A DNA stretch of 64,000 nt from Patescibacteria group bacterium (lineage in GTDB: Bacteria > Patescibacteriota > UBA1384 > XYA2-FULL-43-10 > 1-14-0-10-43-13): the NCBI GenBank assembly GCA_041666325.1, contig JBAYHC010000004.1, positions 64,929 through 128,928 on the forward strand, in the 5' to 3' direction. The notes beneath the pieces are model-generated. The model searched no databases. It saw only the letters and a program-made list of their open reading frames with translations, and had not been told where the DNA came from. Position numbers and translations under genes: made by a program. Shown here one piece after another: positions 9,547 to 27,214 of the stretch (position 1 is its first letter; every line of letters starts with the position of its first letter).

Positions 9547-10326
9547 TTACACGCTAGAACACTGCCACAATGAGGCAAAGATCTGCGAGAAATTGCCAGC
9601 CAAATGCTGATTTGTTATGCGAATACCGACAAGACCGCCGCTCTCGAAGGAAAGTATGCTAACCATATCTCCAACAACATAGATGGCAAACTCTTTGATC
9701 ACTGTGCTCTTTGGCAGTAAACGAAATTCCAGCGCATTGCGCGTCTGGTAGTACTTAGCTTTATCTCTCTCGGTTGCTGAATCATTGATCAGCAATTTTG
9801 TCTTGATGCCTCGTTCAACTTTGAAATGCTTGACCAGATCGTGCCACTCCCGATCGAAAACAAATGACCATTCCTTGCTCCAGACAAACTCATCCCGCAG
9901 AATCAGCATCGTCTCGTTCTCCTTGGCCTGACGCAACATCGATAGATAGATTTTTTTAAGCCCTTCCTGCCCCTCAAAAAAAGTAATTTGAGGAATGGAC
10001 AGATCTTGATTGCCGAGTATTTTGAACTGTTCCTTGAGGTTTTTAACTAGTTGAAACTTCTGATCAATGGCGGCTTTCTCTTTCTCTACCATTTGTTCAA
10101 GCACGTTGTAATCTTCGACAATAAATTGTTTTACTTCGTTCTTGTACGTCGTGCTGACAAGACCCTTGGACTGCAAATCACTCAGAGCGGTGTAGACGCT
10201 GCTTCTAGAAAGATTAGTCTTCCTGGCAATGAGCGAGGCACCGGATGGCGACTTCTCAACCAGAGCAGAGTAGACCAGGGCCTCGTTTTTAGTAAACCCA
10301 AGTTTCTCGATCAATTGTTGAATCAT
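9547..10326 (-). CDS. TrmB-family transcriptional regulator (paralog 1 of 3)
   Basis: N-terminal winged HTH LGFTKNEALVYSALVEKSPSGASLIARKTNLSRSSVYTALSDLQSKGLV plus a C-terminal TrmB-like domain. Confidence 0.65.
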   Translation of the reverse strand: MIQQLIEKLGFTKNEALVYSALVEKSPSGASLIARKTNLSRSSVYTALSDLQSKGLVSTTYKNEVKQFIVEDYNVLEQMVEKEKAAIDQKFQLVKNLKEQFKILGNQDLSIPQITFFEGQEGLKKIYLSMLRQAKENETMLILRDEFVWSKEWSFVFDREWHDLVKHFKVERGIKTKLLINDSATERDKAKYYQTRNALEFRLLPKSTVIKEFAIYVVGDMVSILSFESGGLVGIRITNQHLAGNFSQIFASLWQCSSV

Positions 10327-13128: not shown

Positions 13129-14607
13129 TTACCCCACATTCATCTCAATCACCGGGGCGGAGCCATCCGGATTGCGCTGGAGCTCAACATCAGCAAAACG
13201 CATTTGAGCAGGATTAAAGTAGAGCATGACTTCGCCGGTCGGGCCGTTTCTGTGCTTGCGGATGAGAACCTCGGTGATACCCTTCTTCTCCGTATCTGGT
13301 TTGTAGTACTCTTCGCGGTAGAGGAACATGACGATATCAGCGTCCTGTTCGATAGAACCGGATTCACGCAGGTCAGAAAGCTGCGGCCGTTTGTCGTCTC
13401 GATGCTCAACCGCACGTGAGAGCTGAGAGAGGGCAATAACGGGCACATTAAGTTCGCGAGCCAAGCCTTTGAGTGATCGAGAAATCTCAGAGATCTCCTG
13501 AACGCGATTTCCATCGCTTCGGGACTTCCCCTCCATCAACTGCAAGTAGTCAATAATAATTAAACCAAGTCCATGCTCCATCTGCAGCCGTCTCGCCTTG
13601 GCTCGAACCTCCATAACATTGGCCCCAGGAGTGTCATCGATAAAGATCGGCGCCTCGGACAAAACACCCATAGCGTAACCAATCTTGGGAAAATCTTCAT
13701 CGGACAGATTGCCCGTACGTAATTTCCAAGAGTCAACGCCAGCTTGGGACGACAAGAGACGATCGACAAGCTGTTCCTTGCTCATTTCCAGAGAGAATAC
13801 ACCAACAGGCACCTTCTCTTCTATGGCTGCATTTTCGGCCAGGTTAAGGGCAAAGGAGGTTTTACCCATAGACGGGCGAGCGGCAAGAATAATAAGGTCA
13901 GATTTTTGAAAACCGGCTGTCTTGGTGTCTAGACCTTTGAAACCGCTGGGGACTCCGCGAATAGCACCCTTGTCCTTGTCGCGATGAATAGTGTCGATAC
14001 GCTCAAATGCTTCGGTTAGGACATCTCTTATGGGTAAGAATTTATCTTTCAAAAATTTTTGGGAGACCGCAAACAAAGACTGTTCTGCCCTATCTAGAGT
14101 TTCAGCGATTTCCCCATCCTCGTCGAAACCTAATCCGGATATATTGTTTCCAGCGCTAATCAATCGCCTCAAGACTGCCTTGTCTCTGACGATCTGTGCA
14201 TAGTGAGTGATGTTGGTCGCGGAGGGAGTGCCATTAACTATTTCGGCCAAATAGCTCGAACCGCCGACTTCCTTGATTTTGCCCTCGTTCTCCAGTGTCT
14301 CTGAGAGAGTGACAATATCAATCGGCATACGCTTTTCGAATAATCGAAGCATGGCTTCAAAGATAATGGCATGGCGATCCTCGTAATAGTCAGGAGGGGT
14401 AACCATATCGGCAACCTTGATAATCGCGTCTTTATCGAGCAGGATCGCACCCAAAACACTCCTCTCTGCTTCCGTGCTCTGGGGCGGGATGCGAACACCA
14501 GAAAAGGCTGCCTTCTTTTGGCTCTCGCCATCTCGATCAAAATTTTTTGCATTACCCCTTGGCATTCGCCCGTCCTTTTCGAATAACGTACTTGGACTCA
14601 ATAACAT
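13129..14607 (-). CDS. dnaB: replicative DNA helicase DnaB
   Basis: N-terminal domain RIPPQSTEAERSVLGAILLD, Walker A ARPSMGKTSFALNLA, and RecA-like core through the C-terminus. Start may be the internal Met at about 14562. Confidence 0.85.
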   Translation of the reverse strand: MLLSPSTLFEKDGRMPRGNAKNFDRDGESQKKAAFSGVRIPPQSTEAERSVLGAILLDKDAIIKVADMVTPPDYYEDRHAIIFEAMLRLFEKRMPIDIVTLSETLENEGKIKEVGGSSYLAEIVNGTPSATNITHYAQIVRDKAVLRRLISAGNNISGLGFDEDGEIAETLDRAEQSLFAVSQKFLKDKFLPIRDVLTEAFERIDTIHRDKDKGAIRGVPSGFKGLDTKTAGFQKSDLIILAARPSMGKTSFALNLAENAAIEEKVPVGVFSLEMSKEQLVDRLLSSQAGVDSWKLRTGNLSDEDFPKIGYAMGVLSEAPIFIDDTPGANVMEVRAKARRLQMEHGLGLIIIDYLQLMEGKSRSDGNRVQEISEISRSLKGLARELNVPVIALSQLSRAVEHRDDKRPQLSDLRESGSIEQDADIVMFLYREEYYKPDTEKKGITEVLIRKHRNGPTGEVMLYFNPAQMRFADVELQRNPDGSAPVIEMNVG

Positions 14608-14739: not shown

Positions 14740-16419
14740 TCAGCTTGCAACTTCAAAAACCTGCTCTGCCACCTTCTGTAACTCATCATCCGCGACGGGC
14801 TTTTTCTCCTTGGGCTTTGGAGTATTAATCTCGCACAGTATCCGGCAACTCCCACCAAGAATTGCGGCCGCTATCTCCTCAAGAATCTGCCGGTTTTTTA
14901 TCTCAGAGATACGGTCCTGGTGAAATTTGAATTTGACACCCAGGGTAAGAAGACCAGCATTTAAAGATAATGGTTGTGCATCACGAAGCAACGCCGCCAA
15001 TGTACCGTTCTCCTTTTTGGTTTGATCAATAATGCTCTGCCAAATATCATCTGTCATTTCTAGCACTGGCGCTGTGGCAGCAGCACTGTCCATGACCTTC
15101 TTCGGGTCATCTGTCGGAATGGATGCCTTGTTTGATTCATTTGGCTCTGTCTTTGGGCTTTCGACAGCATCCTTCAGGCCGGCATCTTTGCTCTCCGGTA
15201 TGAGAGATGATCCGTTTTCTTCTCTGTCCTCTTTCTTCTCGGCTGGTTTCGCCTGAAGTGTATCTGCTGCAGCCTTTGTCGTGCTCGCAACAGGTCGCGC
15301 TTCGGCTCTTGTCTCGCCTGACTTGCTTGCCTCTCCTCCTTCCACCTTCGCTGCAATCTGAACCACAGCCATCTCTAGCGGCAGTGTTGGAATCGATACA
15401 TCTTTAAGCGCCCGACCTTTTTCAATAAATATTTCTAGCGCAGCGACAACCCTCTCAACCGAAACCGTTGCGGCAATCTTCGAGATCTTTTCCAGTCCCT
15501 CTTTTGATTCATTCAGGATTGATTGACCGCCGATAAGATAGTGAAGTACGCGACGCAGGCCTTCGATCACCTGTCGGTTAAACACTGTCATTTCCGCACC
15601 GCTCTCATAGAGACGGTGGACGATTTTTAATCCCTCCTCCGGGAGACCATTAAAAATCGTCCACAGGAAGCTATCTACCTCCTCCCCTCGCACTACACCC
15701 AAAACACTTTCAACATCGGCAACGCCGATATCCTTGGTGCGGCTTGCGACCTGCTCAAAAAGACTAATCGCATCCCTATGACCGCCCTGTGCTGCACGAG
15801 CGATCAAGTCAAGTGCCCCGTCCGTTATTTTGATGGCCTCGCCTTCAGCAACACGCTTAAGATATTTGACAATGTCGCCGTGACTGACTCGCTTAAAGTC
15901 ATACCTCTGGGCCCTTGATAATATTGTGGCCGGAACCTTCTGCACCTCTGTCGTCGCCATAATAAAGACAACATGAGACGGCGGCTCCTCCAGGGTCTTT
16001 AGTAGTGCATTAAACGCACTCTTTGAGAGCATATGAATTTCATCGATGATGTAAACTTTCTTCTTCGACACAGCCGGGGCCAGTCTGGCCTTGTCGATAA
16101 TATCTCTGACATCATCAACGCTAGTGTGTGAAGCGGCATCGATTTCAATAACGTCGAGCGCTTTGCCTGCCGCTATCTCAAGACAGCGATCGCACGTATT
16201 GCACGGCTCCCCCCTACCGTTTTCCTCAATTTTCTGACAACAAAAGGCCTTGGCAAGCAAGCGAGCGGTAGTTGTCTTTCCTGTTCCGCGCGGTCCCGTC
16301 AAAAGATAGGCATGAGAAAGACTGCTGCTCTTGATAGCCTCAAGCAGAGTCAAACTAACATGGTCTTGACCAATAACATCAGAGAAGTTTTGAGGACGGT
16401 ATTTGTGATATAAGGCCAC
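14740..16419 (-). CDS. dnaX: DNA polymerase III subunit gamma/tau
   Basis: MALYHKYRPQNFSDVIGQDHV...LLTGPRGTGKTT, a zinc module CNTCDRC, and a low-complexity tau-like C-terminal region. Confidence 0.9.
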   Translation of the reverse strand: MALYHKYRPQNFSDVIGQDHVSLTLLEAIKSSSLSHAYLLTGPRGTGKTTTARLLAKAFCCQKIEENGRGEPCNTCDRCLEIAAGKALDVIEIDAASHTSVDDVRDIIDKARLAPAVSKKKVYIIDEIHMLSKSAFNALLKTLEEPPSHVVFIMATTEVQKVPATILSRAQRYDFKRVSHGDIVKYLKRVAEGEAIKITDGALDLIARAAQGGHRDAISLFEQVASRTKDIGVADVESVLGVVRGEEVDSFLWTIFNGLPEEGLKIVHRLYESGAEMTVFNRQVIEGLRRVLHYLIGGQSILNESKEGLEKISKIAATVSVERVVAALEIFIEKGRALKDVSIPTLPLEMAVVQIAAKVEGGEASKSGETRAEARPVASTTKAAADTLQAKPAEKKEDREENGSSLIPESKDAGLKDAVESPKTEPNESNKASIPTDDPKKVMDSAAATAPVLEMTDDIWQSIIDQTKKENGTLAALLRDAQPLSLNAGLLTLGVKFKFHQDRISEIKNRQILEEIAAAILGGSCRILCEINTPKPKEKKPVADDELQKVAEQVFEVAS

Positions 16420-16518: not shown

Positions 16519-16562
16519 GGACATCCCCTTTGCCTCTGTATTATAAGGGCAAAGGGGATGTC
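16519..16562. other. perfect 16-bp palindrome (GACATCCCCTTTGCCC / GGGCAAAGGGGATGTC) with 12-nt AT-rich loop in the 460-bp dnaX-pilB intergenic region
   Basis: Read directly from the sequence; no U-tract on either side. A second imperfect hairpin sharing GGCAAAGGG lies at about 16668-16722. Confidence 0.5.
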
Positions 16563-16880
16563 TCGTGAACAGATGTACTATTATCTGCTGCTGGGCTTGA
16601 AGATATATTTGTGAGCTAAAACATAGCCCTCTTATCCCCATACATATCCACAGGAAGTCGATCAATAGGCAAAGGGCGTAAGTAAATCACATTCTTGACC
16701 ACGCTCCTTTCCCCTTACGCCTATCTTCATTATCCTGTCTTTTTTCCAATAAAAATGGTATATTTAACTAGACAATATCGATTGTCCAACTGCGCCCCAA
16801 CAGGTCAGGGCTATGAGGGACAACACTTCGCCAATTTGGCCTGCCGGCCGTAACCTTGGCGAGGGTCGGAGGGGAAATAA

Positions 16881-19292
16881 ATGAATCGGAGCGAGCTAGT
16901 CAGGGCCGTGGCGGACAAGACGGATTTTTCGCTGGTCAAATCAGATAAGTTGGTTACCGCCCTGTGCGACACCATTACAGAAGCTTTAGAACGAGGCGAC
17001 AGAGTCGTCTATTCTAACTTTGGTTCGTTTTACACCGTCCACTATCCCTCAAAGGTCATCATCCATCCCAAGCTTGGCCTGGCTAAAAAAATGATAATGT
17101 TACCAACAAACGTAGCCAAATGGATGCCATCAGAGAATATAAAGAGTTTGGTCAGATCCGGTGAAACCAAGGGTTCGCCAACGCTCCACGCACTAAAATC
17201 AACCAACAAAGAAGTTCCGTCCGGTACCATCGTAGCGAGCAACAACACTACGAGAACGGTTCGCGATGAAACACCAGACTCCGATGAAACCATCGTACCA
17301 ATCCGTCTCTCCAGCCGAAACGCCAAAAACATTGTCGGGGCAGAAATTAACCCCGAACAGAAAAACAAAAATATCAACATCTATGAAGAGTTAATGCAGG
17401 ACGGCAGCAAAGAAGAGACAACTTTTAATGGCGCAATCAGGGTCCCCAAAGACAGAAGCAAGCCATTTTGGAGCAAGCTCTTTAATCGCTCTAAAGACCA
17501 GGAATCATCTACCCCAACAATTGGTCACATAGACAACCAAAACAAAGACACCCAGAAAGTCTCACTGGTTGATTCAGGCGTATTCGATCCCGCCAGCAAA
17601 CCGGAAACTATGGCAGTGCAAGCCACTGCGGAACAAAGCGCTGGAGCCGGTCTTGCCAGTCATCCTCAGGGCGAGACAGTTTCAGTTCAGACAAACAATG
17701 ATCAGACACCCATCGAAAAACCCATTGCGCCATTTCCATCTAATCCGATGGAGATCTCGTATATAGATCTATCCAAAGCGATTGTTCCCAAAGAAATTCT
17801 ACAAAAAATCCCTGAGAAAATTGCTCGCCACTACGGAGTCGTGCCAGTCGAGGAGAACGATAACGAGCTTGTCGTTGCCATGACAGATCCCGAGGACATC
17901 GAGGCGAAAGAGTTAATCAAGAAGTATGCCCAAAAGCCGCTAAAAGTGAGGCTTGGCACACAAGCCGACATCAACCATGTGCTAGACCAATACCAAGGAC
18001 TAGAGTCAGAAGTCCTGGAAGCTATCGAAGAAGTGAACACCGAAGAGGAGGAGAACAACAAAACAGACAACGGCAAGGCAGCAAATCTTACGGTTGCCGA
18101 CGATGCTCCAACAGCAAGGATTGTCAATTCTCTCCTCAGGCGCGCGATTCGAGATAAGGCCTCGGACGTACATATTGAACCACTAGAGAATGAGGTTCAG
18201 GTCCGCTTCAGAATTGATGGCGTTTTACACAAAAAGTTAACTTTACCAAAAGATATTCAGCTGTCAGTCTCCTCCAGGATAAAGATCCTATCCAACATAA
18301 AGATTGACGAGCAACGCTTGCCTCAAGACGGACGATTTAGCATAAGCATCGACAACAGAAGAGTAGATTTTCGTGTCTCCACTCTCCCCACGGCTTACGG
18401 CGAAAAAATTGTCATGAGAATCCTAGATAAGGCCTCTGGAGTTTTAACAGTTGAGCAACTTGGTCTTCAGGGCATGGGCCTCGACGCGCTAACTCAAAAT
18501 CTAGAAAAATCACATGGCATGATCCTGGTGACTGGCCCAACGGGATCAGGTAAAACCACTACTCTTTACGCCCTGATTGATAAGCTTTTTGCCGAGGGCG
18601 TTAATATCGTCACTCTCGAAGACCCGATCGAGTACCAGATGCCAGGCATTAACCAGAGCCAGGTTAACTCCAACATAGACTACACTTTTGCATCAGGATT
18701 GCGCTCAATAGTCAGGCAGGATCCGGATATTATTATGATCGGGGAAATTAGAGACATGGACACAGCCGAGATGGCGGTTCAGGCCGCCCTGACCGGCCAC
18801 GTTGTCCTCTCCACTCTCCACACCAATGATGCTGCCGGCGCAGCACCGCGATTAATAGATATGGGTGTCGAGCCATTTCTTCTTACCTCCTCGGTCAATG
18901 TCATTATCGGACAACGCCTCGCCAGAAAGATATGCGATGAGTGCAAGGAGAAAGATGCGATTCCTGAAGCAGAGATAGAGAGCGTCAAAAAAATTATCGA
19001 CACTATGCCCGAAAAAGAAAAGAAGGAAATGTCCAGCAAGGAGCTTGTTTTCTATAAGGGAAAGGGTTGCAAATCCTGCGACAACACAGGCTATCGTGGC
19101 AGAATCGGCATATTCGAGGTCCTAAGTGTTACCGAGACAGTCAGAGATTTGGTTCTGCGCAAGGTCTCCTCGGGAGAGATTCAGACCAAGGCAATCGAGG
19201 ACGGGATGGTAACAATGATTCAAGACGGAATAATTAAGTCCCTTGAAGGCAAAACCTCGCTGGAAGAGGTTTGGAGAGTAACAAAAGATTAA
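16881..19292 (+). CDS. pilB: type IV pilus assembly ATPase PilB/GspE family with N-terminal HU/IHF-like DNA-binding domain and disordered linker
   Basis: C-terminal Walker A VTGPTGSGKTTTLYA, the GspE N-domain and a tetracysteine motif CDECK...CKSCDNTGYRGR. Residues 1-90 (MNRSELVRAVADKTDFSLVKSDKLVTALCDTITEALERGDRVVYSNFGSFYTV...) align with HU/IHF, followed by a Ser/Thr/Asn/Gln-rich linker of about 190 aa. Confidence 0.85.
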   Translation: MNRSELVRAVADKTDFSLVKSDKLVTALCDTITEALERGDRVVYSNFGSFYTVHYPSKVIIHPKLGLAKKMIMLPTNVAKWMPSENIKSLVRSGETKGSPTLHALKSTNKEVPSGTIVASNNTTRTVRDETPDSDETIVPIRLSSRNAKNIVGAEINPEQKNKNINIYEELMQDGSKEETTFNGAIRVPKDRSKPFWSKLFNRSKDQESSTPTIGHIDNQNKDTQKVSLVDSGVFDPASKPETMAVQATAEQSAGAGLASHPQGETVSVQTNNDQTPIEKPIAPFPSNPMEISYIDLSKAIVPKEILQKIPEKIARHYGVVPVEENDNELVVAMTDPEDIEAKELIKKYAQKPLKVRLGTQADINHVLDQYQGLESEVLEAIEEVNTEEEENNKTDNGKAANLTVADDAPTARIVNSLLRRAIRDKASDVHIEPLENEVQVRFRIDGVLHKKLTLPKDIQLSVSSRIKILSNIKIDEQRLPQDGRFSISIDNRRVDFRVSTLPTAYGEKIVMRILDKASGVLTVEQLGLQGMGLDALTQNLEKSHGMILVTGPTGSGKTTTLYALIDKLFAEGVNIVTLEDPIEYQMPGINQSQVNSNIDYTFASGLRSIVRQDPDIIMIGEIRDMDTAEMAVQAALTGHVVLSTLHTNDAAGAAPRLIDMGVEPFLLTSSVNVIIGQRLARKICDECKEKDAIPEAEIESVKKIIDTMPEKEKKEMSSKELVFYKGKGCKSCDNTGYRGRIGIFEVLSVTETVRDLVLRKVSSGEIQTKAIEDGMVTMIQDGIIKSLEGKTSLEEVWRVTKD

Positions 19293-19437
19293 TAAAGGCA
19301 AAAGTTAGCAAGGCACCAGGCGAAAAAGATGCGGTCAAGAAAGAATGTGGTTCTCTTACGCCTTACGCCTTTCACACTTACGCCCGCCTGCATCGTCTGG
19401 AGCGAAGCGACTGCGGGCAGGCCTTACACCATTTATC
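19290..19437 (+). repeat. intergenic repeat element copy A (AGGCAAAAGTTAGCAAG ... hairpin CGCCCGCCTGCATCGYCTGGAGCGAAGCGACTGCGGGCAGGC ... ACACC) immediately upstream of pilC
   Basis: Near-identical 42-nt hairpin core also at 20697-20739 and 37956-37998; flanking modules are also shared. Confidence 0.6.
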
Positions 19438-20628
19438 ATGCAATACACCTACAGCGCAAAAGATGACAAGGGAAATATTATAAAAGGCACGCTAGAAGCA
19501 GCGTCTGAAATCTCGGCTGCGAACGCTCTCCGCGCCAAGGCCCTTTTCCTGCTGGACCTCAAGACCAAAAAATCCCCAAGAGCGATTTGGCAACGCCGTG
19601 TTCCGCTCAAGGAGAGAATTATCTTTACTCAGCAATTGGAGATTATGGTCAGATCAGGCTTACCGCTCGTTGATGCGATCACATCTCTCCAGGAAGAAAC
19701 CGAAAACAAAAGATTTGCCTCCGAACTCTCGCAAGTTGTGGCTAGTGTGGAAACGGGATCACTTCTTTCGGACGCACTGGCCAAATTCCCCAAAACTTTC
19801 AGCGAAGTATACGTCAACCTGGTACGATCCGGAGAGAAGACGGGCCAACTAGACAAAGTCCTGCAACGTCTGTCTGGTCAACTTCAGAAAGACTTTGAGG
19901 TAAATAGAAAGGTGAAGGGCGCCCTATCCTACCCACTGTTTATTCTCACTGCGCTGATTGGCGTGATGGTTTTGATTCTAAACGCGATTATCCCGCAACT
20001 GCAACAAATATTTGACGATGTTGGTGCCGAGCTTCCCCTTTCTACCCGCATCGTGATTGGGGCTAGTAAATTTACACGAAGCTATGGCGTTTTTACTCTG
20101 GCGTTTATCATTGTGGCAATTGTCTTAATATCCCGTTGGCTCAAAACAGCCCAAGGCAAGAGATTCTTTGATCGTTTTTTACTGAAAATACCGGTTATCG
20201 GACTCTTGCTCAGAAAGTCGTACCTGGCTCGCTTGACTCGTACCTTTGCTGCTTTATCAAACGCCGGCCTACCAGTGCTTGAGGCGCTGCGGGTGTCGAG
20301 CAATGTAATCGGAAACTCCGTCTACGAAAGAGAGGTTGTGAAGGTTGCCGACAGAGTAAAAAATGGGCAAACAATCTCGAAGGCGTTCGGAGAGAGCCCG
20401 CTATTTCCGGCAATGATTATGCAGCTAGCCTCTGTTGGCGAAAAGTCCGGCAACATCGGAGAGGTTTTTGACAGCTTGGCCGACTTCTTCGACAGGGATG
20501 TCGACTCCATAACAACAAATTTATCAACAATGCTTGAACCACTGTTAGTCATTATTCTGGGTGTTGGGATAGCAGCCATCATCATATCTGTTCTGCAGCC
20601 AATCTATGGATTAGTAAATACGATGTAG
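19438..20628 (+). CDS. pilC: type IV pilus inner-membrane platform protein PilC (GspF family)
   Basis: Two GspF repeats and three TM segments. Start placed at MQYTYSAKD because the upstream tool start would translate through the repeat element. Confidence 0.8.
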   Translation: MQYTYSAKDDKGNIIKGTLEAASEISAANALRAKALFLLDLKTKKSPRAIWQRRVPLKERIIFTQQLEIMVRSGLPLVDAITSLQEETENKRFASELSQVVASVETGSLLSDALAKFPKTFSEVYVNLVRSGEKTGQLDKVLQRLSGQLQKDFEVNRKVKGALSYPLFILTALIGVMVLILNAIIPQLQQIFDDVGAELPLSTRIVIGASKFTRSYGVFTLAFIIVAIVLISRWLKTAQGKRFFDRFLLKIPVIGLLLRKSYLARLTRTFAALSNAGLPVLEALRVSSNVIGNSVYEREVVKVADRVKNGQTISKAFGESPLFPAMIMQLASVGEKSGNIGEVFDSLADFFDRDVDSITTNLSTMLEPLLVIILGVGIAAIIISVLQPIYGLVNTM

Positions 20629-20764: not shown

Positions 20765-21706
20765 ATGTTTCTTCCCTTCTCTGAAAATTCAATTGTGGGT
20801 CTTGATATCGGCTTTGAAACGCTGAAGCTTGTCGAGCTCAACAAGGGCGGCGGCAAAGTTTCTCTGCGCGGCTTAAGCAATATTTCTCTACCAGAGCGCA
20901 TACTGGAGCGAGACCACTTCAAGGACAAAAAGGCCACTGCGCAGCTAATTGCAAAAGCTTGCGAGGAGGCAAAACCAGCCTCGATCAAGGCCAGAAAAAT
21001 TGTCTCTGCACTGCCAGAAACGTTTGTCTTCTCCAAGACAATTCAACTACCAAAGATGGAGGAAGGTGAATACGAAAAAGCTGTACCGATGGAAGCAGCT
21101 CAGTTCTTGCCCATACCTATCGAACACGTCTATCTTGACTTCGAGGTGCTCATCACCAGACCAGACCAACCGCTTGCAGACATCCTTATCGTCGCGTCAC
21201 CAAAACGCTTAGTCGAAGAGTACGTCGAGGTTGCCCAGTTGGCAGGATTTGAATTAACTGCCCTTGAACCAAAAGCTCTGGCAGTCGGCAGAGCCCTTTT
21301 GCCGCATGATTTCACTGAAGGAGTACTGATAGCCGAGATTGGGACGGAAATCACCAGAATATCGATTTGGGACGGAAATAAGCTTAGGCTGACAACGACT
21401 GTCAGCGCTGGCAACAACCAGATAGCCGAGAGCACCAAAGCGGGTGATTTTCACCATTTGCTTCCGATTATTGACGAGGTAGTAACCGCCATACGCTATC
21501 ATCAAAATCGCGATTATCAACCAAAACCAATTAGTAAAATTTTGCTATGCGGATCAGGCGCCTGCATTCCAGGCATAGATAAAATATTTGAAAACGAGAG
21601 TAAAATTAAGGTTGAGATTGCTAGGCCACAACTTCACGGCGAAGACGAGCTTGGGCCAGAATACACAACAGCATTCGGCCTGGCGCTAAGAGGAGAATAT
21701 GAATAA
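20765..21706 (+). CDS. pilM: type IV pilus assembly protein PilM (actin-like ATPase fold)
   Basis: IVGLDIGFETLKLVEL N-terminal actin-like start and LLCGSGACIPGIDK C-terminal block. Confidence 0.8.
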   Translation: MFLPFSENSIVGLDIGFETLKLVELNKGGGKVSLRGLSNISLPERILERDHFKDKKATAQLIAKACEEAKPASIKARKIVSALPETFVFSKTIQLPKMEEGEYEKAVPMEAAQFLPIPIEHVYLDFEVLITRPDQPLADILIVASPKRLVEEYVEVAQLAGFELTALEPKALAVGRALLPHDFTEGVLIAEIGTEITRISIWDGNKLRLTTTVSAGNNQIAESTKAGDFHHLLPIIDEVVTAIRYHQNRDYQPKPISKILLCGSGACIPGIDKIFENESKIKVEIARPQLHGEDELGPEYTTAFGLALRGEYE

Positions 21707-21868: not shown

Positions 21869-22408
21869 ATGTCCATTAATTTACTGCCACCAAAATTAAA
21901 GAAACAGAAAGGCGTTGAAAAAAAGCTTCGCTCAGTTTTGCTTGGCCTGATTTATCTCGCCGCCATGATCCTGGTTTTAAGCGGGGTGCTCTTTTCCTTC
22001 AATATTGTGAATAAAAATGAACTCGACCAAGTGATCGCACGCACAGAGGCGTACAAGACAGAAGCAAAAGCATACTCAGAGATCAAGGAAAAAATAACTA
22101 AGACCAACAGCAAGTTAGACAAAATCAGCCAGATAGACAATAACCGCGTTTTGTGGAGTGTCATAATCGCTGAAATAGAGATCCTTACTCCAGCTCAAGT
22201 CACAATTCGCACTATGGACCTATCCCACGATTCCAAGATCATTAATACAGTTGGAAAAGCTGAAAGCCGCTATGACGTTGTTCTGTTCAAGGACAAACTA
22301 GAGGCTTCACCGTTCTTCAAAAATGTCACCTTTTCCTCTTCGTCCTTCAATCCAGATGAGAACAATTACTCCTTTGCCTTAAAGTTCGAGCTGGAGAAAA
22401 ATAAATGA
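21869..22408 (+). CDS. pilN: type IV pilus assembly protein PilN
   Basis: MSINLLPPKLKKQK start, a single TM helix, then a coiled-coil/periplasmic domain; position after pilM. Confidence 0.7.
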   Translation: MSINLLPPKLKKQKGVEKKLRSVLLGLIYLAAMILVLSGVLFSFNIVNKNELDQVIARTEAYKTEAKAYSEIKEKITKTNSKLDKISQIDNNRVLWSVIIAEIEILTPAQVTIRTMDLSHDSKIINTVGKAESRYDVVLFKDKLEASPFFKNVTFSSSSFNPDENNYSFALKFELEKNK

Positions 22409-23004
22409 TGATTAGCTCATACAAAAAAACAATCGTCCTGCTTGTAGTAACAACCGTAATAATGACGGCAATAATTCAATTTGTGCTTTCTCCGCAAGTT
22501 CGCGTATTCGCCACGAACCGAAAGAAAATAACCAAGGCTCTGGAAGGCCAAACAAGCGTTCAGGTGGAAGTCGAACAATTAAAAAGGGTCAAAAAGAACG
22601 AAAAGGATGTTAGCGCTAAGGCAGAGCGAATTAATAAGCTCTGGCCGGACAGCAACGAAATATCAAGCTATATCATCCAGACAGAAGCGCTTGCCAGTAA
22701 AAACAATTTAGTCCTGAACAATATCACGATAACCGAAAGCACAAAGAAAGAGGCCAAGACCAGTGAGAACAAGGAAACCAAGGCCGATAGCGAAGCAGTG
22801 AACACCAGCACCAGCAAGAAGGGCAAGAGCGAAGAGGGCATACGATTTTCATTTGATGCCAGCGCCTCGTATGACAACTTCAAGCGTTTCGTTGACGGCA
22901 TGGAACAGCTTGAGCGATTCAACCTTGTTTCATTGGTAAATATTAGCTCAAGTGGTGGCGATGGAGTCACTTTTAAGATCAGTGGAGTGATATATGCTAA
23001 GTAA
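22405..23004 (+). CDS. pilO: type IV pilus assembly protein PilO-like
   Basis: N-terminal TM helix plus coiled coil, translationally coupled to pilN (ATGA overlap); position in operon. Confidence 0.55.
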   Translation: MMISSYKKTIVLLVVTTVIMTAIIQFVLSPQVRVFATNRKKITKALEGQTSVQVEVEQLKRVKKNEKDVSAKAERINKLWPDSNEISSYIIQTEALASKNNLVLNNITITESTKKEAKTSENKETKADSEAVNTSTSKKGKSEEGIRFSFDASASYDNFKRFVDGMEQLERFNLVSLVNISSSGGDGVTFKISGVIYAK

Positions 23005-23302: not shown

Positions 23303-23701
23303 CTAAGCCACTGTCTTTTTGGCCACGCCTGCCGATTTTAGCGCACTCTCGATCTTCTCAACCACTTCCCCGGGCATGACCTCACTTTTGATGAGATAAG
23401 CATCGGTATCTCTCATCATCTCCTTGACCTTATCGATCTCGCGAACAAGGGCGGTCAATAGAATTACCGGGATACCGGCAGTCTCCTCATCCTCGCGCAG
23501 TTTCTTCATGACATCAATGCCGTTAACCTTCGGCATCATAATATCCAGAAGAATAACACTTGGCTTCTCGCTCGATGCCTTTTGGAGTGCTTCCTCTCCA
23601 TCAGAGGCGGAGATGATCTCGTAGCCGCCCTCCTTGAGCCGAGCTTCATACATTTCGCGCAAGATCATATCGTCATCAACAACCAGAATCTTTGCCATCA
23701 A
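23303..23701 (-). CDS. single-domain response regulator (CheY-like receiver)
   Basis: KILVVDDD ... VILLDIMMPKVNGIDV ... K near the C-terminus. Confidence 0.75.
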   Translation of the reverse strand: MMAKILVVDDDMILREMYEARLKEGGYEIISASDGEEALQKASSEKPSVILLDIMMPKVNGIDVMKKLREDEETAGIPVILLTALVREIDKVKEMMRDTDAYLIKSEVMPGEVVEKIESALKSAGVAKKTVA

Positions 23702-23707
23702 TACCTC

Positions 23708-24700
23708 CTAGTTTGCTTTGTAAACTACGTAGTCAAATAGATCATATAACGTTCCCGATTGGCGATCAATATCTGCGGTCAACTTTCGACTAGTTCCGTT
23801 GAAGTAACCGGTCGACTCAACGTGGGTATATGGTCCATATATTGGCAATCCAATCCCTGTTGGATTGTTCATGTCTCTAAAGGCAAAAGCAATATCCGCT
23901 CCGATCGGCTTGACTGACAGCTCCGCCTCCGGGTCCAACATATCACCCATTCCTTTAAGCATAAATTTAGCCTTGATACCGTTTATCGGGGCATATCCAT
24001 TGGTAGGATGCAGAGTATAATTTATCCTTGATGATGGATCAATATTAGAATTAATACCGTTGCAAACAGCGCTATTGTTATAAAACATAAGTTTGTGCTC
24101 CTCAAGGTTGCCGCCCTGTTTGCCGGTCAGCTTCATCTCCAGCAAGACGCATCGACTGTCAAGTGTGGTACCGGAATCGCTTGACGAGGCAATCGGCCTG
24201 AAAAAAAACTGAATATCGCTCGTAGATAAATTCACCTTAAACTTTTTAGCCTCATCCTTTAGAATCCGGTAGGGGGCAAACCGGTGTTCGCCATAGTTCT
24301 TATCGTCAGCGGCAGTTAGAGTGAAGGGAATAGAGATAATCTTGTTAACATTGCCGTGCGCAACCGAGCGAGAACCAAGCTTCAGATCATAATAGGCTTT
24401 GCTCACATCAAGGGGCAGGGCTACATTGGGTTGGCTGCCATCAGAAAGATTACTTCGAGTAAATTCATTTCTGTTGTAAGCTAGATCATCAAATGGGACC
24501 TCCGTGTCGCGATCGTAGCGGTAACGCAAGAAGCTCTCCTCGATGCCGGACTCAGCTGAGTAATAGGCAACGATGCCACTCTCGTAAATCGATGAGATAG
24601 TGCTCTCAGCAAAGAGAAGCCGACTCAAACCAAAAACAGTGCCGCCGATTGCGGTCAGAAGAAAAATAGTGATAATGAGCGCCGATCCCCTCCGCCTCAT
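23708..24700 (-). CDS. hypothetical secreted/membrane-anchored protein adjacent to the pilus cluster
   Basis: MRRRGSALIITIFLLTAIGGTVFGL signal-anchor-like N-terminus; Asn/Ser/Gly-rich body. Start taken at the second in-frame Met. Confidence 0.5.
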   Translation of the reverse strand: MRRRGSALIITIFLLTAIGGTVFGLSRLLFAESTISSIYESGIVAYYSAESGIEESFLRYRYDRDTEVPFDDLAYNRNEFTRSNLSDGSQPNVALPLDVSKAYYDLKLGSRSVAHGNVNKIISIPFTLTAADDKNYGEHRFAPYRILKDEAKKFKVNLSTSDIQFFFRPIASSSDSGTTLDSRCVLLEMKLTGKQGGNLEEHKLMFYNNSAVCNGINSNIDPSSRINYTLHPTNGYAPINGIKAKFMLKGMGDMLDPEAELSVKPIGADIAFAFRDMNNPTGIGLPIYGPYTHVESTGYFNGTSRKLTADIDRQSGTLYDLFDYVVYKAN

Positions 24701-24956
24701 CGGGCCTCCGTCAACTAGTAAGAGTATAAGCAAGTAAGCTGCACTGAATCCTGTGGCTGACTTACCAGCCTACTAGCTTATCTGCTTATCGCTATTTTAC
24801 CAGATTTACCCGACAAGCAACAAATCCCCCGCCCTAAATTACGATGACCGAGATACAAAAGATCAATGAGCCTGACATAATAAGACGCCGGAGCACAACC
24901 ACTTGCCCTAGCGGTGCCTTACCCCGTATAATTGGTTTAATATTCAAAGGAGGATA

Positions 24957-26249
24957 ATGTATAAGTTGCGCATCTCTTTTTGGGAAGCGGCCACCTGGTC
25001 GGTCGTCATCTTGATGACACTTATCGTTGTCTCTTTCTTCCCATGGTATACGGCCGAAAACCTGCTTCGATACATCTTCGCCACCTCAGGCGTAGCAGCA
25101 ATATTCTGGTATCTGAAGAGTCGTCGGCTTTATCGCGAGAGCCAGGAAAAAACTTTGGAAATTGCCCAAAAACAGAAGGAGATCTCTGCTCATCAAAAAA
25201 CCATTAGCCTGATCTTCGACAATTCCGCTGACGGCATTCTTATCCTCGACAACGACCAGATCATCACCGACTTCTCTCCGGGACTAGAAAAAATCACCGG
25301 CTACTCCAAGAATGAGGCTATCGGAAAAAATGCTCAAGAACTATTAAAGTTTTCCGGCGACAACAGCAACAGCTTGCTTCCAGATGCGATGTTCATCTCT
25401 CGCTCTCTCCACAAGAAGCCCTACATCAGAAACACCCTCATGACCAAGCAGGGCAGAGAAATTGATGTCGAAGCAAGCTACACCTTGATCTCTGATCCCG
25501 GCAAGAACAACATAAGCGGCATGGCAATCATTCGCGACATCACATATGAGAACGAACTCGTGCGAAGAGACAAAGAGTTTATTGCGATCACCTCTCACCA
25601 GCTCAACACCCCGCTCTCTATCATTCAAGGCTACGTCTCTCTGATCAAGGAGGGCAAGGCGGGAAAAGTAACTGAAACTCAGATGAATTACATTAATGAA
25701 ATTGTATCGGCACTCAAAAAGATGATCGACCTCACGAACAATCTTCTATCTATCTCACGGATTGAGCAAAATAAAATCAAGTTGGAGAAGAGTGATGTCA
25801 ACGTCGCTGAGATAATAAAAAAGATTATGGACACATTTGGCTCTTTTGCCAAGAAGAAAAATATCGATCTAATTTGCATGCAACCCAAGAAGGACCTATT
25901 GGTTTACGCTGACCAAGAAAAGTTAATTCAAGCACTATCAAATATCACCAGTAACGCCATAAAATACACTCAAAAAGGCAAGGTCGAACTATCCGTCAAC
26001 AGAGAGGCTGGCAATATTGTCTTTCAAATCAAAGATAGCGGCATCGGTATCGCCCCAGAGGAAATAGAGCGTATTGGCGAAAAGTTTTATAGAACGCAAC
26101 AAGCGATTGATGCCGACCACCAGGGCACAGGTCTGGGCGTCTTCATTGCCAAGACAATAATCGAAAAGCACGGCGGGACGCTGGCGATCAGAAGTGTTCT
26201 AAATAAAGGCACAACCTTTGTCGTGTCTCTGCCGGCAACTAACTATTAG
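24957..26249 (+). CDS. sensor histidine kinase (TM + PAS + HisKA + HATPase_c)
   Basis: H-box ITSHQLNTPLSIIQGYVSLI, N-box SNAIKYT, G-boxes DSGIGI and GTGLGV; PAS-like segment FSPGLEKITGYSKNEAIGKN. Confidence 0.8.
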   Translation: MYKLRISFWEAATWSVVILMTLIVVSFFPWYTAENLLRYIFATSGVAAIFWYLKSRRLYRESQEKTLEIAQKQKEISAHQKTISLIFDNSADGILILDNDQIITDFSPGLEKITGYSKNEAIGKNAQELLKFSGDNSNSLLPDAMFISRSLHKKPYIRNTLMTKQGREIDVEASYTLISDPGKNNISGMAIIRDITYENELVRRDKEFIAITSHQLNTPLSIIQGYVSLIKEGKAGKVTETQMNYINEIVSALKKMIDLTNNLLSISRIEQNKIKLEKSDVNVAEIIKKIMDTFGSFAKKKNIDLICMQPKKDLLVYADQEKLIQALSNITSNAIKYTQKGKVELSVNREAGNIVFQIKDSGIGIAPEEIERIGEKFYRTQQAIDADHQGTGLGVFIAKTIIEKHGGTLAIRSVLNKGTTFVVSLPATNY

Positions 26250-26257
26250 AGGAGTAT

Positions 26258-26620
26258 ATGAAAAAGGTATTAATCGTCGACGACGAAGAAGCAATATTAA
26301 AAATGTATTCGGTCGTGCTACAGGATGAATTCGAGGTTATAACCGCTCATAATGGCAACGAGGGCTTTGAGACTGCAAAAAGGGAAAAGCCAGATTTGAT
26401 TTATCTCGATATCATTATGCCGCAACTGAACGGACTTGACGTCTTGGGCAAGCTGAAGGATGACAAGGAGACGACCACCATTCCGGTTGTTCTTCTAACC
26501 AATCTTCCCAAGGAAGCTTCTGCCGATAAAGCTAAAGCGCTTGGTGCTGCTGACTATTTTGTTAAGGTTGAGACTGAGCCGAGCAAGATTGCCGAAATTA
26601 CCAAACAAATACTGGGCTAG
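26258..26620 (+). CDS. single-domain response regulator (receiver)
   Basis: KVLIVDDEE ... LIYLDIIMPQLNGLDV ... K. Confidence 0.75.
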   Translation: MKKVLIVDDEEAILKMYSVVLQDEFEVITAHNGNEGFETAKREKPDLIYLDIIMPQLNGLDVLGKLKDDKETTTIPVVLLTNLPKEASADKAKALGAADYFVKVETEPSKIAEITKQILG

Positions 26621-26636
26621 CACTGCTATTAAAATT

Positions 26637-26666
26637 AAAAGCGCTACTTCGGTTAGCGCTTTTAAT
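26637..26666 (+). terminator. rho-independent terminator
   Basis: AAAAGCGCTA-cttcggt-TAGCGC followed by TTTT. Confidence 0.6.
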
Positions 26667-26761
26667 TTTGTACTTCGATGCTGTTGACAAACTGAGTGAT
26701 AAAATGTACAGTGTTGCGTTAAGCTACTATTTGACTATCGGGCCAGTATGGCCTAGTCGTT

Positions 26762-27214
26762 TTGATTATTATGAAAAAGAAAACTAGAAAAAATAGAAAA
26801 ATTCTTATCATCGATGATGATTGGACTATCGCCCAGATGTATGGCGAAAGACTGGACACAGAGGGCTACGATGTTGTCTGGGCCAATGATGGTGTTGTCG
26901 GACTTGAGAAGATACTCCACCACAAGCCTGATTTGATCATTCTTGATCTCTTCATGCCCAACCGTGGTGGTTTAGGCGTCTTGCGAGTTCTGCGAAGCAT
27001 TCCAAAGACTGCCCAGATCCCAGTCATCGTTCTAACTGCCTATCCGAAAGAGGAGTTTACCTCTGTTGCCGAACGTTACGGCATATCATCATTCTTTGGC
27101 AAGGCAAGCACTCTTCCTGCTGAGATCGTACTAAAGGTAAAAGAGGCTATGGCAGTACCAAGGACAGTCAGGAAAAGCTACACCCAGGAAATCACAATCG
27201 CAAAGTTGTACTAA
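26762..27214 (+). CDS. single-domain response regulator (receiver)
   Basis: ILIIDDD ... LIILDLFMPNRGG ... K; start possibly at MKKKTRKN. Confidence 0.7.
   Translation: MIIMKKKTRKNRKILIIDDDWTIAQMYGERLDTEGYDVVWANDGVVGLEKILHHKPDLIILDLFMPNRGGLGVLRVLRSIPKTAQIPVIVLTAYPKEEFTSVAERYGISSFFGKASTLPAEIVLKVKEAMAVPRTVRKSYTQEITIAKLY

What the first reader, a model, noticed from the sequence alone, without database searches (positions are those of the whole stretch)
16881..19292. PilB/GspE secretion ATPase fused to an N-terminal HU/IHF-like DNA-binding domain
Residues 1-90 of the 803-aa ORF align convincingly with bacterial HU/IHF (MNRSELVRAVADKTDFSLVKS...GDRVVYSNFGSFYTV...). After a low-complexity Ser/Thr/Asn-rich linker of about 190 aa come a GspE N-domain and the full hexameric ATPase core with its tetracysteine motif. 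There is no stop codon between the HU-like domain and the ATPase. A histone-like DNA-binding module joined in one polypeptide to the type IV pilus extension motor is not a standard architecture. In a small-genome, likely symbiotic organism this could couple DNA handling to pilus/competence function.
Basis: partly seen in the sequence, partly recalled or inferred. Interest (0 to 1): 0.7.

Follow-up and report, generated by a model that had tools for sequence, protein, structure and literature searches.

The report
HU domain fused to pilus motor
A group of ultra-small Patescibacteria makes its type IV pilus assembly motor (PilB) as one protein with a histone-like HU DNA-binding domain on a long floppy tether, and related species keep the HU part intact even where the motor has decayed, so the HU part does something of its own.

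Summary
Window 16881..19292 (+) is one 803-aa ORF: an HU/IHF-fold module (residues 1-93), a ~200-aa disordered linker, an MshEN/N1 domain and a complete PilB-type ATPase with its tetracysteine motif. It is not an assembly join, because the identical ORF lies inside contigs of two other independent assemblies. About 100 protein clusters and 20 GTDB species, all Patescibacteria MAGs, carry the same architecture in the same locus (dnaB-dnaX | HU-pilB-pilC-pilM-pilN-pilO). This HU type is never found free-standing in 1.84 billion representative proteins. Its beta-arm is as conserved as the ATPase core but remodelled: canonical R53/R55/R61 become V/Y/aromatic, while Pro63 and the net positive charge are kept. 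In at least two independent lineages the ATPase catalytic motifs have decayed and pilC is lost from the locus, yet the ORF and the HU module stay fully conserved. The HU module therefore has a function that does not need motor activity. My best reading is a dimeric nucleic-acid clamp displayed on a PilB hexamer scaffold, linking DNA to the pilus base. DNA binding itself is untested. I found no description of this architecture in the searchable literature, so I rate it a new variant of a known kind.

The parts
16868..16872 (+). Shine-Dalgarno GGAGG, 8 nt upstream of the ATG of the HU module
   Evidence: Read directly from the sequence. It supports translation starting at HU residue 1, as in nearly all homologues.
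16881..19292 (+). Complete HU-PilB ORF, 803 aa plus stop codon
   Evidence: The identical ORF occurs in two other assemblies.
16881..17159 (+). HU/IHF (DNABII) fold module, residues 1-93: alpha1, alpha2, beta-sheet with extended arm, alpha3
   Evidence: PF00216 at 54.6 bits. PDB HU proteins match at E=4e-8. AF2 pLDDT is about 91. All top 50 Foldseek PDB hits are HU/IHF.
17010..17129 (+). Beta-arm region, residues 44-83, with the family signature YSNFGxFYTVHYPSKVIxHPKLGxxKKMIMLPTNVxKWMP. It is the most conserved part of the N-terminal half.
   Evidence: (103 sequences): F47/G48/F50 100 %, P63 102/103, K58 97/103, K78 102/103; canonical R53->V, R55->Y, R61->Y/F/N; a 2-residue insertion at the tip; fraction identical 0.9 over residues 41-60.
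17160..17753 (+). Disordered linker, residues 94-291. Family length range 135-315 aa, acidic on average.
   Evidence: pLDDT below 50 over 104-287. Linker length range and mean net charge of -9.6. No PDB or Pfam match.
17286..17306 (+). Linker island 'E-x-IPI-R/K', residues 136-142
   Evidence: Conserved across the family and retained in most dead-motor forms.
17370..17495 (+). Linker island NIYEELMxDGSKEExTFxGAIRV...FWxKLF, residues 164-205
   Evidence: Fraction identical about 0.5 in an otherwise 0.1-0.3 linker. Weak beta and helix prediction. Lost in most dead-motor forms and in some active ones.
17556..17588 (+). Linker island VSLxxSGIFD, residues 226-236
   Evidence: G233 is at least 90 % conserved.
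17754..18008 (+). MshEN / GspE-N (N1) domain, residues 292-376, without the c-di-GMP 24-mer motifs
   Evidence: PF05157 at 63.2 bits. The motif search was negative.
18096..19277 (+). PilB-type hexameric ATPase (N2 + C-terminal domain), residues 406-799, with catalytic boxes and tetracysteine
   Evidence: PF00437 at 446.7 bits. Motifs located. Best solved relatives are Geobacter and Myxococcus PilB at E about 1e-130, against PilT at 1e-35.
19345..20628 (+). pilC (platform protein, T2SSF)
   Evidence: PF00482 at 194 bits; syntenic in relatives.
20765..21706 (+). pilM
   Evidence: PF11104 at 110 bits.
21869..22408 (+). pilN
   Evidence: PF05137 at 32 bits.
22405..23004 (+). pilO-like gene
   Evidence: PF04350 at 22.1 bits, right at the cut-off; syntenic.
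14740..16419 (-). dnaX, transcribed divergently from HU-pilB; a conserved neighbour
   Evidence: The divergent dnaB-dnaX arrangement appears wherever the upstream flank is held (18 of the 20 related loci).
13129..14607 (-). dnaB, a conserved neighbour

Best explanation
Shown: this is a genuine single-polypeptide, lineage-specific variant of the type IV pilus extension ATPase PilB. It carries at its N-terminus a folded HU/IHF (DNABII) module joined by a 135-315-aa disordered, mostly acidic linker to an otherwise complete PilB (N1/MshEN + ATPase + zinc tetracysteine), and it is encoded at the head of a pilB-pilC-pilM-pilN-pilO cluster. The HU module is under purifying selection as strong as that on the ATPase core. 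It occurs only in this fused state. It persists unchanged in lineages where the motor's catalytic residues have decayed. Inferred: HU folds are obligate dimers and PilB is a hexamer, so the protein most likely displays three basic HU-type clamps on flexible tethers around a PilB ring. The arms keep the intercalating proline and a net charge of about +4, but arginines are replaced by Tyr/His/Lys. They most likely still bind a nucleic acid, with altered specificity (possibly distorted or single-stranded DNA). The protein would thereby tether DNA, chromosomal or incoming, to the cytoplasmic base of the pilus machine. In the dead-motor lineages the ring would serve only as an oligomeric scaffold for the HU clamps.
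For: Domains and motifs. HU fold. Not an artefact: three independent assemblies; about 100 homologous clusters with PF00216+PF05157+PF00437; 20 species loci with conserved synteny; in-frame conserved islands inside the linker. Selection on HU: mean column conservation is 0.71 for HU (0.9 in the arm), 0.79 for the ATPase and 0.26 for the linker; invariant F47/G48/F50, P63 in 102/103, basic K58/K64/K67/K68/K78/K86. The module's net charge averages +8.4 across the family, against +5.8 for free HUs. Fused-only state: in an exhaustive search of 1.84e9 representatives, the top 22 hits (65-121 bits) are N-terminal modules of long proteins, all those tested being HU+(MshEN)+T2SSE, except one 100-aa contig-end fragment (P0136). 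Free ~90-aa HUs appear only at 52 bits or less and 30-37 % identity. Motor-independent function: in L011, L014, L016, L020, P0131, P0133 and P0134 catalytic motifs are lost (Walker A Lys, Asp box, Walker B Glu, His box and/or Arg fingers; L014 only the Asp-box Glu and His box), and the T2SSE score falls from 441-450 to 132-318 bits, while HU stays at 48-58 bits and 53-58 % identity with a near-identical arm. On a DnaB+DnaX marker tree the dead forms are not monophyletic: 0 % bootstrap for monophyly, 100 % for L014 with active L018, and 100 % for the clade mixing L011/L016/L020 with active L012/L013. HU and ATPase pairwise identities are correlated (Spearman 0.43), consistent with joint vertical descent.
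Against: No binding assay or multimer model could be run. Three of the four canonical arm arginines (R53, R55, R61) and body lysines K80/K83 are replaced, and the PROSITE-type HU signature (recalled from memory) is not satisfied, so double-stranded DNA binding of the classical kind may be lost. The acidic linker could mask the basic module. In cultivated TM7x the pilus locus with the same gene order is dispensable for competence (PMC11623550). PilB is normally a low-copy protein, which fits poorly with a general nucleoid-packaging role. 'Dead motor' is inferred from motifs only; L014 and L020 keep the Walker A lysine. The marker tree is neighbour-joining on two proteins.
Confidence: 0.5

Rival explanations
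1. The HU fold has been repurposed as a pure dimerisation or protein-binding module with no nucleic-acid ligand. It would cross-link PilB protomers or hexamers, or use its remodelled Tyr/His/Lys arm to grip a protein partner (PilM, PilC, a response regulator, or its own acidic linker) and so regulate assembly.
For: Canonical arm arginines are replaced by V/Y/aromatic residues and the arm tip carries a 2-residue insertion. The linker has conserved short motifs typical of docking peptides. Response regulators and a conserved unknown gene (orf341) stay adjacent in every locus that extends past the pil cluster. The HU/IHF superfamily is known to have multidomain clades with non-classical roles (PMC5499826).
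Against: The module is more basic than free HUs (+8.4 against +5.8). The intercalating Pro63 and K58/K86 are kept. A mere dimeriser would not need an arm that is the best-conserved segment of the N-terminal half. Persistence after the motor decays is hard to explain if its only job were to regulate that motor.
Confidence: 0.25
2. The fusion is a neutral gene fusion of an essential housekeeping hup gene with its downstream neighbour pilB. The two halves work independently, HU as the cell's general nucleoid protein and PilB as an ordinary motor, and the long linker merely makes the fusion harmless.
For: The gene sits next to the replication genes dnaX and dnaB in every locus where the upstream flank is held. 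No second HU gene lies in the 64-kb window or in the 12-kb flanks of the 20 related loci. HU is retained when the motor decays, as expected for an essential nucleoid protein.
Against: This HU type never reverts to a free gene. No free-standing copy exists among 1.84e9 representatives, and even dead-motor forms keep a 528-755-aa scaffold with an intact tetracysteine. The arm is strongly derived from housekeeping HUs. Whether these genomes hold another hup could not be tested, because only 64 kb of this genome was available.
Confidence: 0.15
3. The fusion is an artefact: a mis-assembly, a sequencing frameshift or a missed stop codon has joined a separate hup gene to pilB.
For: The NCBI/JGI copy of this contig breaks inside the HU module. 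One related locus (L005) has the ORF split in two.
Against: The identical uninterrupted ORF lies in the interior of two other assemblies made from other data. More than 100 homologous clusters from NCBI, ENA, JGI and Logan share the architecture. Linker motifs are conserved in frame. The HU start coincides with a good ribosome-binding site, and no ribosome-binding site precedes any internal Met.
Confidence: 0.01

Closest known systems
Canonical type IVa pilus extension ATPase PilB (Geobacter metallireducens PilB, PDB 5TSG/5ZFR/6OLJ; Myxococcus xanthus PilB, 3JC8)
   Same: N1 (MshEN/GspE-N) domain, N2 and C-terminal ATPase domains, Walker A / Asp / Walker B / His boxes and a zinc tetracysteine. 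E about 1e-130 over residues 272-803. Encoded with pilC, pilM, pilN and pilO.
   Different: It has an extra 291 N-terminal residues (HU module plus disordered linker). It lacks the two 24-residue c-di-GMP motifs of MshEN. It scores below the NCBIfam PilB equivalog cut-off, 572 against 675.65 bits. No pilT or secretin lies in the locus.
Thermus thermophilus PilF (PDB 6F8L, 5OIU, 5IT5)
   Same: A PilB-family motor with a long N-terminal extension in front of the ATPase (E=4e-111). From general knowledge, PilF serves both piliation and natural transformation, and its N-terminal domains separate these roles.
   Different: The PilF extension consists of repeated MshEN/GSPII domains that bind c-di-GMP. 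Here the extension is a DNABII fold on a disordered tether.
Free-standing HU/IHF (DNABII) proteins, e.g. Bacillus stearothermophilus HU (1HUE/1HUU), Anabaena HU-DNA (1P51/1P71), E. coli IHF (1IHF)
   Same: The same fold and topology (Foldseek probability 1.00, TM 0.55-0.65). The core residues F47/G48/F50/L6/L36 are conserved. The arm-tip proline P63 and basic residues at positions 3, 41, 58 and 86 are kept.
   Different: Only 25-37 % identity. R53/R55/R61 become V/Y/aromatic, G60 becomes I and N62 becomes H. There is a 2-residue insertion at the arm tip. It is never free-standing. It falls far below the NCBIfam HU/IHF equivalog cut-offs, 27-39 against 111-162 bits.
Actinobacterial HU with long tails (Mycobacterium HupB/MDP1, Streptomyces HupS)
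   Same: An N-terminal HU fold followed by a long low-complexity region (general knowledge; the papers were listed but not read).
   Different: Their tail is basic (Lys/Ala-rich), itself binds DNA, and ends the protein. Here the tail is on average acidic and leads into an ATPase.
Multidomain HU clades HU-HIG and HU-CCDC81 (Burroughs et al. 2017, PMC5499826)
   Same: HU domains embedded in larger proteins, with proposed non-classical roles.
   Different: This module matches PF00216 itself. HU-HIG scores only 17 bits against a cut-off of 26.2. That survey mentions no PilB, GspE or ATPase fusion.

Membership tests
HU/IHF (DNABII, Pfam PF00216) | Profile match above the curated threshold over the whole domain | tested here: met
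   54.6 bits (58.8 for the module alone) against a cut-off of 22.4, covering profile positions 1-89 of 90.
HU/IHF (DNABII, Pfam PF00216) | Fold: two helices, a beta-sheet with a protruding beta-ribbon arm, and a C-terminal helix | tested here: met
   AF2 pLDDT 91, elements H3-14, H18-37, E42-83, H85-93. All 50 significant Foldseek PDB hits are HU/IHF/Hbb/TF1-type proteins.
HU/IHF (DNABII, Pfam PF00216) | Intercalating proline at the arm tip (P63) | tested here: met
   P in 102 of 103 family members, including this one.
HU/IHF (DNABII, Pfam PF00216) | Arg-rich DNA-contacting arm (R53, R55, R58, R61; R-N-P motif) | tested here: not met
   V53, Y55, K58, I/Y/F/N61 and H62. Arm net charge is nevertheless about +4.
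HU/IHF (DNABII, Pfam PF00216) | Membership of the HU-alpha/beta or IHF-alpha/beta equivalog families | tested here: not met
   Best is 39.2 bits against a cut-off of 111 (IHF-alpha); HU-alpha scores 30.9 against 162.
HU/IHF (DNABII, Pfam PF00216) | Homo- or heterodimer that binds and bends DNA | not testable with these tools
   No multimer prediction or binding assay is available. Dimer-core residues are conserved.
PilB-type type IV pilus extension ATPase | T2SSE ATPase core with Walker A, Asp box, Walker B and His box | tested here: met
   PF00437 at 446.7 bits. Motifs at 552, 579, 614 and 638, invariant in the active family members.
PilB-type type IV pilus extension ATPase | Tetracysteine zinc-binding motif in the C-terminal domain | tested here: met
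   C685/C688 and C730/C733 are invariant.
PilB-type type IV pilus extension ATPase | N-terminal GspE-N/MshEN (N1) domain | tested here: met
   PF05157 at 63.2 bits, residues 292-376.
PilB-type type IV pilus extension ATPase | Closer to extension (PilB) than to retraction (PilT) ATPases | tested here: met
   PilB structures at 1e-126 to 1e-130, against PilT at 1e-31 to 1e-35.
PilB-type type IV pilus extension ATPase | Encoded with the pilus platform and alignment genes | tested here: met
   pilC, pilM, pilN and a pilO-like gene lie immediately downstream. In related species pilC follows in 12 of the 20 loci and pilM/N/O in two more, L012 and L020.
PilB-type type IV pilus extension ATPase | NCBIfam equivalog TIGR02538 score above the cut-off | tested here: not met
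   572.3 against 675.65 bits. GspE TIGR02533 scores 580.7 against 630.25, and ComGA NF041000 scores 255.4 against 300. It is PilB-like but sits outside every curated equivalog.
MshEN c-di-GMP receptor | Two tandem 24-residue motifs RLGxx(L/V/I)(L/V/I)xxG(L/V/I/F)(L/V/I)xxxxLxxxLxxQ | tested here: not met
   No match to the strict or the relaxed pattern anywhere in the protein. The PilB profile alignment starts at profile position 36.

The most novel reading that the evidence does not exclude
The PilB ring has been co-opted as a multivalent scaffold for three specialised HU-fold clamps. Their Tyr/His/Lys-lined arms would bind single-stranded or distorted DNA and hold incoming or chromosomal DNA at the cytoplasmic base of the pilus machine. 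This would be the first direct physical link between a type IV pilus motor and DNA inside the cell, in organisms that must scavenge DNA for nucleotides. The same protein would survive as a motor-dead DNA-organising hexamer in lineages that lost the pilus.
Probability: 0.15. Interest if true: 0.85.

Novelty: new variant of a known kind. Interest (0 to 1): 0.6.

Why it matters
Type IV pili are among the few conserved surface machines of Patescibacteria (CPR) and are thought to underlie host attachment and the DNA scavenging these nucleotide auxotrophs depend on. No cytoplasmic link between the pilus motor and DNA has been described in any bacterium. A conserved PilB that carries its own HU-type module gives a concrete, testable candidate for such a link. 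The repeated decay of the motor with retention of the HU module shows that the added domain, not the motor, is the indispensable part. That suggests a hexamer-displayed nucleoid-associated protein of a new kind. It also extends the HU/IHF superfamily with a clade that has a remodelled arm and exists only as a fusion.

Tried and rejected
1. Assembly join or frameshift: rejected.
2. c-di-GMP-binding MshEN motif: absent.
3. A regulatory RNA in the 460-bp upstream intergenic region: Rfam gathering-threshold scan found only four tRNAs elsewhere in the window.
4. The 15-bp perfect inverted repeat at 16520-16562 as a conserved operator or HU target: it is unique in the window but absent from the equivalent regions of 11 related loci, so it is not part of the system.
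5. A second, free HU gene: none in the window or in the flanks of the related loci. The rest of the genome could not be reached.
6. Searching the 90 %-cluster database with the HU module alone to size the family: the word index returned only 4 candidates, so this was uninformative. Family size rests.
7. Linker against PDB and Pfam: no match.
8. orf341 and orf82, the conserved neighbours: no family or structure match.
9. Literature: no paper combines PilB with an HU domain or with Bac_DNA_binding+T2SSE. The HU/IHF superfamily survey, the 2024 PilB review, the CPR protein-family paper and the Saccharibacteria pilus paper do not mention it.
10. An internal translation start that would make a separate PilB: the internal Met codons lack ribosome-binding sites and are not conserved.
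11. dN/dS analysis: not attempted, because synonymous sites are saturated at 55-60 % amino-acid identity.
Full report
OBSERVATION. Window 16881..19292 (+) is a single 803-aa ORF. A GGAGG ribosome-binding site lies 8 nt upstream of the ATG. Pfam finds three domains above their curated thresholds:
- Bac_DNA_binding (PF00216), residues 1-91, 54.6 bits against a cut-off of 22.4, covering the whole profile.
- MshEN (PF05157), residues 292-376.
- T2SSE (PF00437), residues 406-799, 446.7 bits.
The ATPase has Walker A, Asp box, Walker B, His box and two CxxC pairs. The closest solved structures of residues 272-803 are PilB of Geobacter and Myxococcus (E about 1e-130), then GspE and Thermus PilF. PilT is far weaker at 1e-35.

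NOT AN ARTEFACT. The 100 %-identical NCBI/JGI protein (P0001) is 'partial' and starts at residue 38 only because that 131,885-bp contig ends inside the gene. The complete, identical 803-aa product is encoded in the interior of an ENA contig of 193 kb and a Logan contig of 30 kb, with the same neighbours. Among the 120 best homologues in the 5.8-billion-protein collection, about 100 clusters (45-63 % identity, 740-915 aa, from NCBI, ENA, JGI and Logan assemblies) carry PF00216+PF05157+PF00437. The HU module starts at residue 1 in nearly all of them. A scan of GTDB species representatives with one strict arm peptide pattern found 20 species, all MAGs labelled Patescibacteria, Saccharibacteria or Berkelbacteria and none cultivated. 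Gene order is conserved: dnaB and dnaX on one strand, diverging from HU-pilB, which is followed by pilC-pilM-pilN-pilO-orf82 in the complete loci (domain identities).

THE HU MODULE. By sequence it matches solved HU proteins over its whole length (1HUE, E=4e-8). AlphaFold2 gives pLDDT of about 90 for residues 1-100, both in the full-length model and alone, with the alpha1-alpha2-beta-arm-alpha3 topology. All 50 significant Foldseek hits in the PDB are HU/IHF-type proteins, several in complex with DNA.

Across 103 family members the hydrophobic and dimer core is kept: L6, L36, F47, G48 and F50 are invariant or nearly so. The arm-tip proline P63 is kept in 102 of 103, and basic residues are kept at positions 3, 41, 58 and 86. 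The arm is remodelled into a family-specific signature, YSNFGTFYTVHYPSKVIxHPKLGxxKKMIMLPTNVxKWMP. Canonical R53, R55 and R61 are V, Y and Y/F/N. G60 is I and N62 is H. Two residues are inserted at the tip, and K78 is new and near-invariant. Net charge stays positive, at about +4 for the arm. For the whole module it is +5 here and +8.4 on average in the family, against +5.8 for free HUs.

Column conservation is 0.71 for HU and 0.90 in the arm. It is 0.79 for the ATPase, 0.68 for MshEN and 0.26 for the first part of the linker. So the arm is a selected ligand-binding surface, not a relic, but it is not the classical arginine-rich one.

FUSED-ONLY CLADE. An exhaustive HMMER search of 1.84 billion representative proteins with residues 1-100 gave 23 hits at E<=1e-10. 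The top 22 (65-121 bits) carry the module at the N-terminus of long proteins, apart from one contig-end fragment (P0136, below). All the short ones tested are HU+MshEN+T2SSE fragments or HU+T2SSE. The next hits are multi-HU proteins and ordinary ~90-aa HUs at 52 bits or less and 30-37 % identity. The only ~100-aa 'free' hit (P0136) comes from a 587-bp contig and is a fragment. Berkelbacteria-type members (about 620-660 aa, short linker) have a more canonical arm, K-S-R-x-I-P-N-P. This suggests the fusion began with an ordinary HU whose arm was later remodelled.

THE LINKER. Residues 94-291 are predicted disordered (pLDDT below 50), match nothing in Pfam or the PDB, vary from 135 to 315 aa across the family and are on average acidic, with net charge -9.6. 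The linker is not featureless. Conserved in-frame islands occur just after HU (T-x-H/F-G-x-x-K-K), at 136-142 (E-x-IPI-R/K), at 164-205 (NIYEELMxDGSKEExTFxGAIRV...FWxKLF) and at 226-236 (VSLxxSGIFD).

MOTOR DECAY WITH HU RETAINED. In four of the 17 species aligned (L011, L014, L016, L020) and three representative clusters (P0131, P0133, P0134), the ATPase has lost catalytic residues. The Walker A lysine is lost in L011, P0131, P0133 and P0134. The Walker B glutamate is lost in L011, L016 and the three clusters. The His box is lost in all seven (P0134 keeps its first His), and the Arg fingers and the Asp box in most. ATPase identity to the window protein is 30-46 %, against 67-77 % in active members. 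The Pfam T2SSE score is 132-318 bits, against 441-450.

The ORFs are nevertheless intact (528-755 aa), the tetracysteine is kept, and the HU module scores the same as in active proteins (48-58 bits, 53-58 % identity, arm nearly identical). These genes sit in the same dnaX-adjacent locus, but pilC is gone, and in three of the loci pilM-N-O-orf82 are gone as well.

On a DnaB+DnaX neighbour-joining tree (990 columns, 300 bootstraps):
- L014 pairs with active L018 (100 %).
- L011, L016 and L020 fall in a 100 %-supported clade with active L012 and L013.
- Monophyly of the dead forms has 0 % support.
So decay occurred at least twice independently. The post-HU motif and the IPI island persist in most dead forms, while the NIYEE and SGIFD islands mostly do not. 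Caveats: the tree uses two proteins and a distance method, 'dead' is inferred from motifs only, and L014 and L020 keep the Walker A lysine.

MECHANISM. Shown: one polypeptide; a folded HU module with a conserved basic arm; a disordered tether; a complete PilB in a pilBCMNO cluster; the HU module selected independently of motor catalysis; never free-standing. Inferred from established knowledge: HU/IHF proteins are obligate dimers that clamp DNA with two arms, PilB works as a hexamer at the cytoplasmic face of the PilC/PilM platform, and its N1 domain contacts PilM. A hexamer would therefore present six HU protomers, or three clamps, on tethers long enough to reach roughly 10 nm or more into a very small cell. 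The most economical function is tethering a nucleic acid to this ring. The replacement of arginines by Tyr/His/Lys on the inner face of the arm suggests a changed preference, possibly for distorted or single-stranded DNA. The acidic linker could compete with DNA for the basic module, as acidic tails do in other DNA-binding proteins; this step is inference only. Because HU outlives the motor, the ring seems to serve HU as a scaffold at least as much as HU serves the motor.

RIVALS. The rivals are a protein-binding or dimerisation role without nucleic acid, a neutral fusion of an essential hup gene with its neighbour, and an artefact. They are weighed in the rival section. The neutral-fusion rival could not be tested decisively, because only 64 kb of this genome was accessible and it contains no other HU gene.

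COMPARISON WITH THE KNOWN. As a motor it works like PilB but falls below the curated equivalog cut-offs for PilB, GspE and ComGA, and it lacks the c-di-GMP motifs of MshEN. As an HU it meets the profile, fold and proline criteria, but not the arginine-arm or equivalog criteria. The closest architectural analogue is Thermus PilF, whose long N-terminal extension consists of MshEN repeats. On the HU side the closest are the tailed actinobacterial HupB/HupS and the multidomain HU clades of Burroughs et al. (PMC5499826), which do not include ATPase fusions. The 2024 PilB review (PMC11656802), the CPR protein-family study (PMC6744442) and the Saccharibacteria pilus study (PMC11623550) do not mention an HU module, and no searchable paper combines the terms. 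The Saccharibacteria study reports a locus with the same order, pilB2-pilC2-pilM2-pilN2 and no pilT, whose mutants keep competence. It is unknown whether that PilB2 has an HU module, and no cultivated strain appeared in the genome scan.

VERDICT. This is a real, conserved, lineage-restricted and apparently undescribed PilB variant with a specialised HU module whose function is separable from motor activity. Novelty: new variant of a known kind. Interest: 0.6.

Noticed in passing
window 4308..6686 (+): A 792-aa ORF holds two tandem D-Ala-D-Ala ligase units (Dala_Dala_lig_N and _C each matched twice, plus a second ATP-grasp at 576-647). It looks like a duplicated or fused Ddl.
   Followed up: no
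window 16520-16534 / 16548-16562: A perfect 15-bp inverted repeat with a 13-nt loop lies in the dnaX / HU-pilB divergent intergenic region. It is unique in the window and not conserved in 11 related loci.
   Followed up: yes
window 23303..24733 (-) and 24957..27214 (+): A receiver-only response regulator and an unannotatable 341-aa gene (orf341) sit convergent to the pil cluster, followed by a PAS histidine kinase and two more receiver proteins. The RR-orf341 pair stays adjacent to HU-pilB even in loci that lost pilC-pilO.
   Followed up: partly
proteins P0090, P0097-P0099 and P0101-P0107: A separate family of about 1004-aa GspE/PilB-like ATPases in Parcubacteria/Buchananbacteria has a roughly 440-aa N-terminal extension that is not HU. 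N-terminal elaboration of this motor seems common in Patescibacteria.
   Followed up: no
L015:586-3264 (-): The DnaB homologue is 892 aa instead of the usual 470-490 aa, possibly because of an intein or another insertion.
   Followed up: no
L009:2967-4678: A 1.7-kb spacer lies between dnaX and HU-pilB, against 250-560 bp elsewhere. It contains several long palindromes, including a 36-bp perfect palindrome at 3664-3699, and may be an inserted element.
   Followed up: no
L005:932-3083: HU-pilB is split into two overlapping ORFs (413 + 350 aa) and has lost its catalytic motifs. This is either a real pseudogene or a frameshift error in a short contig.
   Followed up: partly
protein P0146: This free-standing 104-aa HU has an arm reading ...LRHYPAQSFKKPKTGE..., sharing the H-Y-P feature of the fused clade. 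It is the best-scoring free HU (51.8 bits) and a possible relative of the ancestor.
   Followed up: no
window 9547..10326 (-), 29362..30117 (+), 41951..42688 (+): Three TrmB-family transcriptional regulators lie within 64 kb of a reduced genome.
   Followed up: no
proteins P0110 and P0112: These close PilB relatives (64-65 % identity, 582-597 aa; one from Berkelbacteria RIFOXYA2_FULL_43_10) start at the SGIFD linker island and lack HU. They are either truncated gene calls or natural HU-less forms.
   Followed up: no
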